From the NCBI GenBank assembly GCA_016840085.1, contig JAEOTA010000036.1, positions 1 to 64,000 of the forward strand: a stretch of DNA of 64,000 nucleotides, given 5' to 3'. Position numbers and translations under genes: made by a program. The notes beneath the pieces are model-generated. The model was not told where the DNA came from, made no database searches, and saw only the letters and a list, made by a program, of their open reading frames with translations. Positions 15,502 to 32,666 of the stretch are shown here, piece after piece. How positions within the stretch are numbered: position 1 is the first letter of the stretch; each line of letters opens with the position of its first letter. This DNA comes from Promethearchaeota archaeon (GTDB lineage: Archaea; Asgardarchaeota; Lokiarchaeia; Sigyniarchaeales; SOKP01).

Positions 15502-17862
15502 TTAAATTAAAGCATGTTCCGTTCTTCTTATAATCTCATCTTGCAAATCGGAACCCAAGTTAATGAAGTAATCGCTGTATCCAGCAACTCTGACGATTAA
15601 GTTTCTAAATCTCTCTGGGCTTCTCTGTGCAGCTCGTAGAGTATCTGCTGAGACAACATTAAATTGAATATGATGGCCATCCATTTTAAAATAAGCACGA
15701 ATTAAATGAGTTAGATTATTTATACCTGTATCACTCGAAAAGAACTTAGGCGAGAATTTTTGATTTAATAATGTCCCTCCAGTACGTAGATGATCAATTT
15801 TACCTGCAGAGTTAATCACTGCGGTTGGTCCTTTAAGATCCATTCCCTGAACGGGGGATATACCTTCTGATAATGGTTTAAAGGCTTTTCTACCATCTGG
15901 AGTCGCACCAGTTACTTGACCAAAATAAATATGGACAGTTGTTGGCAAGAGATTAATCCTGTGTGCACCACCTCTCGTATTAGGGCGTCCATTTATTGAA
16001 TCATATACAATTTCAAAGACGTCCTGAGTGATGGAATCCGCATAATCATCATCATTCCCATATTTAGGCGTTTTATTTAGTAATTTTTGTCGCAAATCTT
16101 CAGATCCATTAAAATCATTCTTTAGGGCTTTCAGAAGTTCTTCCATCTTGAAATTATTATTGTCATAAATGTTATACTTTAATGAAGCTAGACAATCTGT
16201 TATGCTCCCCATACCTACGATTTGAATATAGGAAGTATTATATCTTGCACCACCATCGTTATAATCCTTTCCTTTCTTGATGCAATCTTCAATTATTATA
16301 GATAAAAAGGGAGAGGGGTTTTGAGCCCAAATCCGTTCAATAATTTGGTTGCCTTTTATTTTTATATCTACAAAATGACATATTTGTTTAGAATAAGCTT
16401 CCATTAACTCATCAAAATTTTTAAAAACTGTTGGGTTCCCCGTTTTTAATCCAATCTGTTTTTTAGTTAGAGGATCGAAACCATTATTAAGAGTAATTTC
16501 AAGAATTTTCACTAAATTAAAATATCCTGTTAGAATATATGCTTCCTTTCCAAAGGCTCCAGCTTCAACACACCCACTTGCCCCAGCATTTCTTGCATCA
16601 ATCAATGACTTTCCTTGACGTGTAAGTTCTTGAATAATCGCATCAGCATTAAATACTGATGGTTGACCAAATCCAGTTTTTATAATTTTAATAGCTCGTT
16701 TTAAAAAATCATCAGGAGTTTTTTTACTAATTTGGACATTACTACTTGGCTGTAAGATACGCATCTCTTCTATTACATCCAGAAGAATATACGATAATTC
16801 ATTCACACCGTCAGAACCATCTTCTTTTAAACCGCCAATATTAATATTACAAAAATCTGTGTATGTGCTACTTTCCTCTGCTGTAACACCTACTTTGGGC
16901 GGAGCAAGTTGGTTGTTAAATTTAATCCAAAACGCTTGAAGTAATTCTATAGCTTCTTCTTTAGTTAAAGTGCCATTAGAAATATCCTTTTTGAAAAAGG
17001 GATATAAATTTTGATCAAGACGTCCAGGATTGAAAGAATCCCAGGTATTATATTCAGTTATAACACCTAAATGGATAAACCAATAATGTTGTAATGCTTC
17101 CCAAAAATTTCTTGGAGCATTTGCCGGAACATATGAACAAATCTCTATTATTCGCTCTAATTCCCTTTTCCTTATAGGATCAGATTCATTTTCAGCTAAT
17201 ATTCTCGTTTTTTCGGCATATCTATTAGCATAAGCGATGATTGCATCTGCTGCTATACTCATAGCCTTCAATTCTTCTCTTTTGTCAAATGCATCGAGAT
17301 CATTATAAAAATCCAAATCTTCTATAGATTTTTTAATTAATTCTTTAAAGTCTAAAAAACCCATTTTCCAAATATTATCTCCTGCTACAGTATGTCCTGG
17401 AGCTCGTTGTTCCATAAATTCAGTAAAAATACCCGCTTCATAAGCATCAATCCATTCTTGGTCAACGTGAGAAAAAATCTTTTCTCTAATTGTTCTTCCT
17501 TTCCAAAATGGAATAATAATATCTTTCGATTTCTGTTTAGTTTCTTCATCAACTCTGAAAGAAATTTTTTTTCGAGAATTTAAAATTTCTAAGTCTTTCA
17601 AACTATGACAACAGACTTCTGGATAAGAGGGTGTAGCTTTAGGTTCCGGTCCTCTCTCTCCTACAATTAATTCACCATCGTTGATGCAAATTTCTTTATT
17701 TTCTAATATATATTGAAAAGCTTTAGCTCTAGCAACCGGGGGAGAGTGTTTGTGCGCTGCTCCTTTACTATAAAAATCAGTAATTAATAAAGCACGTTCC
17801 AGTGAGAGATATGGAATTGCTTCACGACTTTGTGTTCGTAGGTTTCTTATCCTCTCTCTCAT
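15502..17862 (-). CDS. hypD: Glycyl radical enzyme, trans-4-hydroxy-L-proline dehydratase-like
   Basis: FTEFMEQRAPGHT, ESSTYTDF, SGCVE, EAYILTGY, LPTT and RVAGYS glycyl motif match HypD as recalled. Confidence 0.8.
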   Translation of the reverse strand: MRERIRNLRTQSREAIPYLSLERALLITDFYSKGAAHKHSPPVARAKAFQYILENKEICINDGELIVGERGPEPKATPSYPEVCCHSLKDLEILNSRKKISFRVDEETKQKSKDIIIPFWKGRTIREKIFSHVDQEWIDAYEAGIFTEFMEQRAPGHTVAGDNIWKMGFLDFKELIKKSIEDLDFYNDLDAFDKREELKAMSIAADAIIAYANRYAEKTRILAENESDPIRKRELERIIEICSYVPANAPRNFWEALQHYWFIHLGVITEYNTWDSFNPGRLDQNLYPFFKKDISNGTLTKEEAIELLQAFWIKFNNQLAPPKVGVTAEESSTYTDFCNINIGGLKEDGSDGVNELSYILLDVIEEMRILQPSSNVQISKKTPDDFLKRAIKIIKTGFGQPSVFNADAIIQELTRQGKSLIDARNAGASGCVEAGAFGKEAYILTGYFNLVKILEITLNNGFDPLTKKQIGLKTGNPTVFKNFDELMEAYSKQICHFVDIKIKGNQIIERIWAQNPSPFLSIIIEDCIKKGKDYNDGGARYNTSYIQIVGMGSITDCLASLKYNIYDNNNFKMEELLKALKNDFNGSEDLRQKLLNKTPKYGNDDDYADSITQDVFEIVYDSINGRPNTRGGAHRINLLPTTVHIYFGQVTGATPDGRKAFKPLSEGISPVQGMDLKGPTAVINSAGKIDHLRTGGTLLNQKFSPKFFSSDTGINNLTHLIRAYFKMDGHHIQFNVVSADTLRAAQRSPERFRNLIVRVAGYSDYFINLGSDLQDEIIRRTEHALI

Positions 17863-30418: not shown

Positions 30419-31030
30419 ATGACAGGAGAAAAACAAGAAGAAGAATTAGTATTTCATAAACCCTCTGAAATGATTTACAAGATTATCGTCATTGGAGACC
30501 CCGCTGTGGGAAAAACCAGTCTTCTGAAGACTTTCTGTGCTGAAAAGTTTGAGTATGAGTATATTCCAACTGTAGGCGTTACAAGTTAGACAATTCGTTT
30601 AATTTGCGTAAATATCACCAAAGAGAAAGTCACAGTAAAGAATGATATGGGAAAAGATACAGATGTGAGTCTGATGATATGGGATATAGCAGGGCAACCA
30701 CAATTTTATATGCTGCATCGTCCATATTTTAATGGCGCAGATGGAATGATGATGGTTTATGATATTACAAGATCTAGTTCCTTTTCAAATGTAAACAATT
30801 GGTGGAATACTTGCATAAAATACGGACTTTCCGCGATTCCCCGTATTCTAATCGGTAATAAAATAGATTTAAAAGATGAAAGAAAAATTATATTGCCTAT
30901 GGCTGAACATCTTAGCCAAAAACTTAACGCAACATTTTTTGAAACATCAGCATTAACAGGAGATAATGTTAGTTCAATCTTTCATAAAATAGGAGAACTT
31001 ACACTACTTTCCAAATTAGAAGAAAGATAA
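30419..31030 (+). CDS. Rab-like small GTPase interrupted by a 30-nt insert; join(30419..30581,30612..31030) gives 193 aa
   Basis: G1 GDPAVGKT and G2 PTVG lie upstream of in-frame TAG 30587-30589; G3 WDIAGQ, G4 NKID and G5 ETSAL lie downstream in the same frame; the ORF track shows only the 3' part. Confidence 0.9.
30582..30611 (+). other. Putative BHB/BHL-type (splicing-endonuclease) mRNA intron, 30 nt
   Basis: GCGU(30576-79)/GCGU(30606-09) 4-bp helix, 3-nt bulges UAC and AAA, 9-bp intron stem 30583-91/30597-605; excision removes the stop and yields GGC GUU AAU AUC. Confidence 0.65.
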
Positions 31031-31054
31031 TTGAAATTTTTTTAAAACCTTATT

Positions 31055-31669
31055 TTATCCTTTTACAGACAGTTTATTAATCCAGAAAGTGATTTTTTCT
31101 TTTAGTTTCCCTTTTATATCATCAGAAAGAGTCTTTAAATCATTTAATTTATTTGAAAATTGTCCAATTTCATAAAGAATTCTGTGACCACCGGTAAAAA
31201 CGAAGATATCTTCTTTAATATTTGCCAAGCTTGTTGTTACATGTTGAGGGTCATCATTTTCTTCGATATACTTTTTTAAGGTGTGAAATTGATCAATAAT
31301 TGCATGTTTTTTATCAGTTGCCGAAGTATCCCTTTCTACTTTTTCACTTTCAACTTCTTTAGGTTGATACGAAATGGTTGATTTTTGAATTAAAGTTCTA
31401 ATTAAATCAAGCTCAGCTTCCAAAATTTTTTGATTTTCAATAACGTTAGTCAATTGAGGCAATAATGCTTTTACATCGAGAGTAGCTTTACTTAATTCAT
31501 TAATTTTATCAGTGAGCATATTTATTTTTAAATTAGTCTGCCCCATTTTAGTTATAAGGTCAAGTCCGAATTTTTCGAGTACTGAGGCAAATTTATCAAG
31601 CTTTTCATCCGCTCCTTTAATATAATTAATGATATCTTCCTTATCCAAATTATTTGAAGGTCCCACCAA
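31055..31669 (-). CDS. Hypothetical coiled-coil protein
   Basis: Heptad-like helical N-terminal half; GAGAGG before TTG start. Confidence 0.7.
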   Translation of the reverse strand: MVGPSNNLDKEDIINYIKGADEKLDKFASVLEKFGLDLITKMGQTNLKINMLTDKINELSKATLDVKALLPQLTNVIENQKILEAELDLIRTLIQKSTISYQPKEVESEKVERDTSATDKKHAIIDQFHTLKKYIEENDDPQHVTTSLANIKEDIFVFTGGHRILYEIGQFSNKLNDLKTLSDDIKGKLKEKITFWINKLSVKG

Positions 31670-31790
31670 TATTCCTCTCTTGCTTCTCTTTTGAGATATC
31701 TGTAGATAAAAAGAAAAACTTTTACAAAATTTTATTTTTATCGAATTTTATTATTTAATAAATATAATTCTATTATAAAAAACTTCTCAA

Positions 31791-32666
31791 GTGTACTACG
31801 TGATACAGTATATTAATATATTAACGAAGGACGGAAAGTCATTGTTATTTAGGAATTATGGGATTTCTGAGGTAGATAGAGATTTATTAGCTGGATTTTT
31901 GAGTGCATTTTCAGGCTTTATGAAGGAAATTAGCCAGAGTGATATTAAGAGTACGCAAACGGAAGATTTTAAATATTTTTATACGATAATAGACACAATC
32001 ATCATTGTCGTGTGTACAGACCTTGAGGACGATGATTCTTCCGTGAACTCGAAGATATTAAGCATAAGAGCCAAATTCATGGAGAAATATGGTAAAATCT
32101 TAGAAGATGGGAGTTGGGCTGGAAATAGGACTTTATTTTATGAATTTGAAAAAGTGTTAGATAATTTTATATTAGGAGCAATAAAAATTTCCATAATAGG
32201 ATTTGGAGGTGTGGGTAAAACTACATTAACGCGTCTTATAGCGGGTAAAAATGTAGATTTAGAATATGTTCCAACAATAACAGCTGATATTGTCTCATAT
32301 GAGGGAGATGAATTCAAAAGAACAATAACCTTATGGGACTTTGCAGGACAGGCTCAATTTAGATCGTTATGGAAAAGCTTATTGACAGGTTCGGATATGG
32401 CTCTACTTGTTACTGATTCTACATTTGAAAATATAAATGGTTCAAAAGAAATTATTCACGAGTTACTTGATAAATTTTTTCAAGATAAAATAGTTATAGG
32501 TATTGCTAATAAACAGGATTTACCAAATAGACTGACTCCTGAATTTTGTGAGAAAATCTTGTCTAGTGAAAAACGTATTATTAAAACTCATGGTATGATT
32601 GCTATTGAACCAATGTATCGTGAGAAAATATTGGCAATATTAAAAGAAGCCATAAAAGAATTATAA
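31791..32666 (+). CDS. Longin-like domain fused to small GTPase
   Basis: N-terminal INILTKDGKSLLFRNY...DLLAGFLSAF longin-like pattern; GFGGVGKT, PTI, WDFAGQ, NKQD. Confidence 0.85.
   Translation: MYYVIQYINILTKDGKSLLFRNYGISEVDRDLLAGFLSAFSGFMKEISQSDIKSTQTEDFKYFYTIIDTIIIVVCTDLEDDDSSVNSKILSIRAKFMEKYGKILEDGSWAGNRTLFYEFEKVLDNFILGAIKISIIGFGGVGKTTLTRLIAGKNVDLEYVPTITADIVSYEGDEFKRTITLWDFAGQAQFRSLWKSLLTGSDMALLVTDSTFENINGSKEIIHELLDKFFQDKIVIGIANKQDLPNRLTPEFCEKILSSEKRIIKTHGMIAIEPMYREKILAILKEAIKEL

What the first reader, a model, noticed from the sequence alone, without database searches (positions are those of the whole stretch)
30571..30617. Candidate bulge-helix-bulge mRNA intron inside a Rab-like GTPase of a probable Asgard archaeon
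Seen in sequence: the frame from ATG 30419 reads ...GDPAVGKT...EYIPTVGV-TS*TIRLICV-NITKEKV...WDIAGQ, so a 30-nt in-frame insert with a TAG sits just after switch I, and all five G motifs are otherwise intact. The RNA folds as GCGU(30576-79), bulge UAC(30580-82), stem AAGUUAGAC(30583-91), loop AAUUC, stem GUUUAAUUU(30597-605), GCGU(30606-09), bulge AAA(30610-12). That gives two 3-nt bulges on opposite strands separated by a 4-bp helix (G-U, C-G, G-C, U-G). Established knowledge: this is the geometry cut by the archaeal splicing endonuclease EndA, after the second nucleotide of each bulge, with ligation by RtcB. Applying that rule removes exactly 30582-30611 and gives GGC GUU A^AU AUC (G-V-N-I), a stop-free 193-aa protein. 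Four of the 13 pairs are G-U wobbles, which work only on the sense RNA and argue against a DNA inverted repeat. The best-known archaeal mRNA introns of this type are in crenarchaeal cbf5; I know of none in an Asgard eukaryotic-signature gene. Inference: GTPase expression would depend on splicing, loosely paralleling non-spliceosomal HAC1/XBP1 splicing. Caveats: the outer exon-exon helix is weak (G30575-U30613, or GUA/UAU with one unpaired G), so the motif is relaxed (BHL-like), and C30582-G30606 allows a competing register.
Basis: partly seen in the sequence, partly recalled or inferred. Interest (0 to 1): 0.95.

Follow-up and report, generated by a model that had tools for sequence, protein, structure and literature searches.

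The report
tRNA-type mini-intron in Asgard Rab gene
A Rab-like GTPase gene of an Asgard (Loki-type) archaeon is broken by a 30-base insert shaped like the introns archaea cut out of tRNAs, and comparison with relatives indicates the messenger RNA must be cut and rejoined, a kind of splicing I found published inside an archaeal coding sequence only for the gene cbf5; no spliced RNA has been seen for this gene.

Summary
Observation confirmed. Bases 30582-30611 are a 30-nt insert with an in-frame TAG in a Rab-like GTPase gene of a Promethearchaeia (Lokiarchaeia) genome. It is in the DNA, also in an independent study; a close strain lacks exactly 30 nt. Cutting by the EndA rule gives 193 aa, the commonest length among 120 homologues; none keeps ten extra residues. 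Relatives carry 30-38-nt inserts at this site and three others. In 16 distinct inserts, 59 of 64 central-helix positions pair at the canonical register (13-34 when slid), including six whose ends homology alone fixes. Related inserts at this very site are often 31 nt (frameshifting), which excludes read-through. In a one-third genome sample, all six stop-containing 30-nt inserts fit the motif, against 0 of 26 and 1 of 24 frame-preserving indels; the single rpoN is split too. Best reading: an EndA/RtcB-spliced mRNA intron with a relaxed motif. Caveats: no RNA data; the catalytic EndA subunit is missing from this assembly, with its neighbouring ATP-synthase block. The HAC1/XBP1-like regulatory idea is unsupported: the intron comes and goes between strains. 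This scan already reported the same phenomenon on other DNA, including Rab-like genes.

The parts
30419..30581 (+). Exon 1 of the Rab-like GTPase (ATG, G1 P-loop, switch I; ends after the first base of the Asn codon)
   Evidence: matches orthologues; low dN at near-saturated dS
30582..30611 (+). 30-nt predicted intron
   Evidence: absent from most orthologues and from a close strain; homologous inserts at the same site in other lineages
30612..31030 (+). Exon 2 (rest of switch I region, G3, G4, G5, TAA stop; no C-terminal Cys)
   Evidence: the 12 codons between the junction and the internal ATG 30647 are fully conserved at protein level in 6 of 11 orthologues compared, at synonymous divergence 0.57-0.71
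30576..30579 (+). Central helix, exon strand (GCGU)
   Evidence: Gly codon is GGC in all 9 distinct carriers of an insert at this site vs 8 of 79 genes without
30580..30582 (+). 5' three-base bulge UA|C, predicted cut after 30581
   Evidence: EndA rule from PMC2738675
30583..30605 (+). Intron stem-loop (9 bp, 5-nt loop); holds the in-frame TAG at 30587-30589
30606..30609 (+). Central helix, intron strand (GCGU)
   Evidence: reads GUGC opposite GCAC in L112 and GCGC in L196
30610..30612 (+). 3' three-base bulge AA|A, predicted cut after 30611
31055..31669 (-). Convergent neighbour, 204-aa protein without Pfam match (context, not part of the intron)
   Evidence: same neighbour beside orthologues
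31791..32666 (+). Neighbouring 291-aa protein with a C-terminal small-GTPase domain and an unassigned N-terminal part (context)

Best explanation
The gene is transcribed with the insert. The pre-mRNA folds a relaxed bulge-helix-bulge motif (4-bp central helix, two 3-nt bulges, strong intron helix, weak exon-exon helix). The two-subunit archaeal splicing endonuclease EndA cuts after the second base of each bulge, releasing 30582-30611, and RtcB joins the exons, giving a 193-aa Rab-like GTPase. Unspliced message stops at codon 57. Shown here: insert, geometry, frame restoration, recurrence in relatives, RtcB and the EndA beta subunit in this assembly, and a catalytic alpha subunit with the broad-specificity loop in most relatives. 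Inferred: transcription, cutting, ligation, and that this strain's alpha gene lies in an unassembled region. The intron is one of a labile class of about 30-nt introns that are gained or lost at a few recurring sites; it is probably tolerated rather than regulatory.
For: Orthologues read PTVG-V-N-I without the insert; 114 of 115 homologues scored have the same spacing from this motif to G3 and none has +10 residues. 16 distinct inserts at 4 sites of this gene: 59/64 central pairs at the canonical register vs 13-34 when slid; with best-of-ties allowed, 128/144 pairs vs shuffle mean 71, maximum 93 in 10,000; six inserts with ends fixed by homology alone have 4,4,4,4,3,3 central pairs. Paired changes between exon and intron strands: GCAC/GUGC (L112) at this site; GGAC/GUCU vs GGUC/GACA in related inserts, and GGGC/GCCU, at the site after WDIAGQ. 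Same-site inserts of 31-32 nt shift the frame. Genome sample: six stop-containing 30-nt inserts on coding strands, all called BHB in at least one of two scans (about 0.4 expected), vs 0/26 and 1/24 frame-preserving indels. The single rpoN found (RNA polymerase subunit) is split by a 31-nt insert of the same shape here and 30-31 nt in 9 relatives. Many tRNA genes of this genome are about 30 nt over-long. RtcB present; alpha EndA of relatives aligns with the Aeropyrum enzyme through the crenarchaeal loop with the K44/R46 equivalents and has the catalytic Y-H-K; that loop confers relaxed-motif cleavage (PMC3241643).
Against: No RNA evidence at this locus. Only the His-less, beta-type EndA is in this assembly; the alpha subunit is not found. 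Its neighbours, including ATP synthase subunit A, are missing too, and so is the second EF-2 paralogue of most relatives, which points to assembly gaps. The competing 3-bp register is predicted slightly more stable and would give a 31-nt, frameshifting cut if used. Several same-site relatives (L186, L209, L355, L361) have an imperfect inner helix, and L357 pairs only 2 of 4 centrally at this register. The inserts are related to one another, so the shuffle statistics overstate independence.
Confidence: 0.88

Rival explanations
1. The insert is a tRNA-intron-like element that landed recently and killed this allele: the gene is a fresh pseudogene, spliced poorly or not at all, and the cell tolerates the loss because it has many small GTPases.
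For: A strain about 97% identical lacks the insert, so it may be recent here and the purifying selection seen may predate it. The competing register is favoured in the fold. Alpha EndA not found in the assembly.
Against: No second lesion in either exon. Homologous inserts sit at the same site in at least six other lineages whose flanking exons read through intact once the insert is removed. The synonymous Gly codon that supplies a central-helix base is GGC in 9/9 carriers vs 8/79 others. The same class splits rpoN in ten genomes.
Confidence: 0.07
2. The insert stays in the mRNA and the ribosome deals with it: stop read-through (pyrrolysine at TAG) or programmed hopping from the Val codon before the hairpin to the Val codon after it.
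For: This insert is in frame with a single TAG, and Val codons (GTT, GTA) flank it, as matched take-off and landing codons would.
Against: No pyrrolysyl-tRNA synthetase over the cut-off in the assembly. Related inserts carry TGA, TAA or several stops, and many are 31-38 nt. No homologue keeps ten extra residues. Take-off and landing codons do not match in L112, L002, L031, L032 or the first EF-2 insert, and hopping would put Asp in place of the conserved Asn in L209 and L112, whereas the BHB cut restores Asn.
Confidence: 0.02
3. The insert is removed at DNA level by slippage or recombination between the two GCGT copies (a reversible switch or small excising element).
For: GCGT occurs on both sides, and seven excisions give the same peptide; a DNA contig without the 30 nt exists in another study.
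Against: That contig has 9 other differences in 268 bases, so it is another strain. Six inserts have no usable repeat and unique ends. The structure relies on G-U pairs and fails on the antisense strand.
Confidence: 0.02
4. The gene is expressed as two separate polypeptides (56 aa, and 127 aa from ATG 30647), as gene callers annotate it.
For: Both ORFs are called in public assemblies.
Against: The 12 codons between the junction and that ATG would be untranslated, yet show no amino-acid change against 6 of 11 orthologues at synonymous divergence 0.57-0.71; the inserts fall at four different positions in relatives.
Confidence: 0.01

Closest known systems
cbf5 pre-mRNA intron of Crenarchaeota (Desulfurococcales, Sulfolobales); Yokobori et al. 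2009, PMC2738675
   Same: Short intron inside a coding sequence, often with a relaxed BHB, cut between the second and third bulge bases by a hetero-oligomeric EndA; lineage-specific presence.
   Different: cbf5 is one gene, one position, inferred ancestral to two orders, with cDNA proof. Here: an Asgard lineage, a eukaryotic-signature GTPase, four positions in one gene, several genes per genome, presence varying between close strains, no cDNA.
BHB intron in the 5' UTR of Haloferax HVO_1309; Schwarz et al. 2020, PMC7714728
   Same: EndA processes an mRNA; 46-nt intron seen as a circle and cut in vitro.
   Different: Untranslated region, so no reading frame depends on it.
Non-canonical tRNA introns of Asgard archaea (Valentin-Alvarado et al. 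2024, PMC11291895; bioRxiv 10.64898/2026.10.13.758758)
   Same: Same lineage group, same motif, repeated gains, two-subunit EndA; tRNA genes of this genome are often about 30 nt over-long.
   Different: Those are in tRNA genes; the preprint's text does not contain the word mRNA and the intron passages of the 2024 paper concern tRNA genes.
Non-spliceosomal HAC1/XBP1 mRNA splicing in eukaryotes (own knowledge)
   Same: Endonuclease cut plus tRNA-ligase joining of an mRNA; RtcB in animals.
   Different: Uses IRE1 on two stem-loops, is stress-regulated and conserved; nothing here suggests regulation or conservation of the intron.

Membership tests
Archaeal BHB/BHL (EndA-spliced) intron | 4-bp central helix with a 3-nt bulge 3' of each strand | tested here: met
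   4/4 pairs (two G-U), bulges UAC and AAA; competing register noted
Archaeal BHB/BHL (EndA-spliced) intron | Intron-side helix h' | tested here: met
   9/9 pairs
Archaeal BHB/BHL (EndA-spliced) intron | Exon-exon helix h (strict hBHBh' only; relaxed motifs lack it) | tested here: not met
   G-U, two mismatches, then two pairs; so relaxed, not strict, as in many cbf5 introns (PMC2738675)
Archaeal BHB/BHL (EndA-spliced) intron | Cut after the second base of each bulge coincides with boundaries set by homology | tested here: met
   One of 7 equivalent excisions here; unique in L209, L112 and L196 at the same site and in three more elsewhere
Archaeal BHB/BHL (EndA-spliced) intron | Broad-specificity (alpha-beta)2 EndA encoded by the organism | tested here: inconclusive
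   Beta-type only in this assembly; alpha with crenarchaeal-type loop in most genus members; the surrounding block is missing here
Archaeal BHB/BHL (EndA-spliced) intron | RtcB ligase encoded | tested here: met
   G000 C83, E 1e-166, no stops
Archaeal BHB/BHL (EndA-spliced) intron | Spliced RNA, circular intron, or in vitro cleavage observed | not testable with these tools
   No RNA run listed as holding this stretch
Rab-like small GTPase (Ras superfamily) | G1-G5 motifs and Ras-family profile match | tested here: met
   Motifs; both halves and the intact orthologue hit PF00071 best; sources name homologues 'Rab family GTPase'
Rab-like small GTPase (Ras superfamily) | C-terminal prenylated cysteines of eukaryotic Rabs | tested here: not met
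   Protein ends without Cys; Rab-like, not a eukaryotic-type Rab
Pyrrolysine read-through | Pyrrolysyl-tRNA synthetase in the genome | tested here: not met
   Best TIGR02367 match 25.5 bits vs cut-off 178; the assembly has gaps
Programmed translational bypass (T4 gene 60, byps) | Matching take-off and landing codons around the hairpin | tested here: not met
   Matches by Val/Val here but not in L112, L002, L031, L032 or the first EF-2 insert

The most novel reading that the evidence does not exclude
Lokiarchaeia routinely splice tens of ordinary mRNAs, including eukaryotic-signature and core genes, with the tRNA endonuclease, and these 30-nt introns spread between lineages into the same hot-spot sites together with a few flanking exon bases (homing-like gene conversion) without encoding any protein of their own.
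Probability: 0.4. Interest if true: 0.92.

Novelty: new variant of a known kind. Interest (0 to 1): 0.8.

Why it matters
In the papers I could search, splicing inside an archaeal coding sequence is documented for one gene (cbf5). If this holds, the closest prokaryotic relatives of eukaryotes already have intron-interrupted protein genes in numbers, including small GTPases, an E1-like enzyme, an EF-2 paralogue and an RNA polymerase subunit. That bears on when mRNA splicing and intron tolerance arose before the spliceosome, gives a system where intron gain and loss can be watched between strains, and means Asgard genomes are mis-annotated: such genes are called as split or pseudogenes. The test is cheap: junction reads or an in vitro EndA assay.

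Tried and rejected
No RNA holder listed for this stretch: no evidence either way. No protein identical to the predicted spliced product was found; best 93% over exon 2, and the two contigs shown that encode the exact exon-2 ORF carry the insert. No second copy or donor of the insert in this genome by short BLAST. Alpha EndA not found by HMM or tblastn. A de novo scan of the window gave two more motif hits (36706, 42773), both inside or opposite long intact ORFs, rejected as chance. The sigma-70 promoter scan is uninformative for an archaeon. My frameshift scan was insensitive (0 of 7 called), so frameshifting introns are undercounted. Pairwise dN/dS cannot show that this allele works today, because the insert may be younger than the divergence measured. 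The tree does not separate repeated gain from repeated precise loss. Marck and Grosjean 2003 was not held. Five keyword searches on Asgard or Lokiarchaeota and two general ones found no paper on mRNA introns in Asgard archaea; subscription journals are mostly not covered.

Full report
Observation. The sequence is as described: a frame from ATG 30419 with the P-loop and switch I, a TAG at 30587-89, then the rest of a small GTPase to TAA 31030. The helix, bulges and inner stem are at the stated coordinates. The sense strand folds at -9.4 kcal/mol and the antisense at -2.2. The folding energy is only mildly unusual, but the full geometry appears in 0.12% of shuffles of the insert. The fold program prefers the alternative C30582-G30606 pair by 0.6 kcal/mol, and the exon-exon helix is poor, so the motif is a relaxed one. 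The insert is in DNA: contigs of two runs of one study (possibly the source) are identical, a contig of an independent study carries it with two differences, and a contig of a third study, about 97% identical, lacks exactly 30 nt.

Organism. Named relatives are Promethearchaeota (Lokiarchaeia), such as Loki_b32 and bin108. Both halves hit Pfam Ras; sources call homologues Rab family GTPases. There is no C-terminal Cys.

Orthologues. Nearly all same-genus orthologues read PTVGVNI with no insert. Of 115 homologous proteins scored, 114 have the same spacing from this motif to G3 and none has ten extra residues; 193 aa is the commonest length. Searching without using the motif, I found further inserts in this gene at four positions: after MIFK, at this site, after WDIAGQ, and in the PYF stretch. 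They are 30-38 nt, all break the frame by a stop or a shift, and removing them restores the conserved peptide. Over 16 distinct inserts, 59 of 64 central-helix positions pair at the register the EndA rule requires, against 13-34 when one strand is slid. Allowing the best of all equivalent excisions for both data and shuffles, 128 of 144 positions pair, against a shuffle mean of 71 and maximum of 93. Six inserts have ends fixed by homology alone and show 4,4,4,4,3,3 central pairs. Exon and intron strands change together: GCAC/GUGC in L112; GGAC/GUCU against GGUC/GACA in related inserts after WDIAGQ. These inserts are partly related, so the numbers overstate independence.

This site in particular. 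Inserts homologous to this one occur at the same position in L186, L209, L354, L355, L357 and L361, mostly 31 nt; two less similar ones are in L112 and L196. All nine carriers use the Gly codon GGC, whose C pairs in the central helix, against 8 of 79 genes without. On the gene tree the five carriers included are scattered (5 changes for 5 rows) and sit beside insert-free sisters. So the intron is repeatedly gained, repeatedly lost, or moved between lineages; the data do not decide. Some relatives have an imperfect inner helix, and L357 pairs only 2 of 4 centrally at this register.

Genome. Against 1.2 Mb of a relative (about 990 orthologous segments), this genome has six stop-containing 30-nt inserts on coding strands: this one, two in an EF-2 paralogue, one in an E1-like gene, one in a gene 4 kb from it, one in an acyl-CoA synthetase. 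Each meets the BHB call in at least one of two scans (about 0.4 expected), while 0 of 26 and 1 of 24 frame-preserving indels do. Scaling suggests roughly 15-20 in-frame cases in conserved genes, frameshifting ones not counted (inference). An RNA polymerase subunit is unlikely to be a pseudogene in ten genomes. Many tRNA genes are about 30 nt over-long.

Machinery. RtcB is intact. Most genus members have two EndA genes. The alpha type has the catalytic Tyr, His and Lys and aligns to the Aeropyrum enzyme through the crenarchaeal loop, with the K44 and R46 equivalents; that loop is what lets EndA cut relaxed motifs (PMC3241643). This assembly holds only the His-less beta type. The 11 kb around alpha in the relative, including ATP synthase subunit A, have no match here, no ATP synthase A/B gene is found, and one of the two usual EF-2 paralogues is missing. 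I read this as assembly gaps, but the cognate enzyme is not shown.

Mechanism. Shown: insert, geometry, frame restoration, recurrence, ligase, beta subunit. Inferred: the pre-mRNA is cut after 30581 and 30611 by alpha-beta EndA and ligated by RtcB (0.88). Rivals: fresh pseudogene (0.07); read-through or ribosome hopping (0.02; no PylRS; frameshifting relatives; unmatched codons); DNA-level repeat deletion (0.02); two separate polypeptides (0.01; the 12 codons that would be untranslated are conserved). A regulatory role like HAC1/XBP1 is not supported, since close relatives do without the intron.

Known systems. The cbf5 intron of Crenarchaeota is the published case inside a coding sequence; introns in other protein genes were only predicted there (PMC2738675). 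A Haloferax 5' UTR intron is the other mRNA case (PMC7714728). Asgard tRNA introns are abundant and repeatedly gained (PMC11291895; bioRxiv 10.64898/2026.10.13.758758), but I found no passage on mRNA introns in either. My searches found no paper on this in Asgard protein genes; coverage of subscription journals is poor. Other agents of this scan reported the same class on other genomes, including Rab-like genes and, in one note, an RNA-derived contig lacking such an insert; those are unchecked notes and I did not test the RNA claim.

Verdict. A real feature, very probably an EndA-spliced mRNA intron with a relaxed motif: a new variant of a known kind, notable for its abundance and lability in Asgard archaea. 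Direct RNA or enzyme evidence is still lacking for this gene.

Noticed in passing
G000 C4:16273-16302 and 16144-16173 (minus strand); L307: The one EF-2-family gene in this assembly has two 30-nt stop-containing BHB inserts in its GTP-binding domain; the same paralogue shows one TAA in about 15 relatives.
   Followed up: partly
L304:1500-1470 (G000 C69, rpoN): 31-nt frameshifting BHB-like insert in rpoN, present in 9 relatives as 30-31 nt with a varying inner stem that keeps pairing.
   Followed up: yes
G000 C78:56825-56854 (-), C78:52861-52890 (+), C6:13999-14028 (-): 30-nt stop-containing BHB inserts in an E1-like gene (GxGxxG loop), a gene 4 kb away that I did not identify, and an acyl-CoA synthetase.
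   Followed up: partly
G000 C49:155065-155095 (+) and C88:61737-61768 (+): Frameshifting 31- and 32-nt hairpin inserts; by eye the first fits a 3-of-4 central helix and restores a CxxC zinc-ribbon start, though my scan did not call it.
   Followed up: partly
L196:1140-1260 and L114:1715-1825: Two orthologues of this GTPase each carry two introns at different sites (32+31 nt; 33+38 nt).
   Followed up: yes
inserts in L002, L150, L189, L198, L203, L196 and the first EF-2 insert: Many inserts at different sites and genes share a short GAG...CUC hairpin tip, hinting at a common origin or binding site; not tested statistically.
   Followed up: no
G000 assembly as a whole: Rated 98.8% complete, yet no ATP synthase A/B, no catalytic EndA and only one of two EF-2 paralogues are found.
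   Followed up: partly
L275 (G012 C1 about 1,821,948-1,821,977, minus strand): The reference genome has its own 30-nt stop-containing BHB insert in a gene that is intact in G000.
   Followed up: no
window 30419-32666: The Rab-like gene converges on a 204-aa protein of no Pfam family, which is divergent from a 291-aa GTPase fusion; the first pair recurs beside orthologues.
   Followed up: no
L087, L091, L157, L160, L165, L166, L175: Some relatives have a tandem second copy of this GTPase gene.
   Followed up: no
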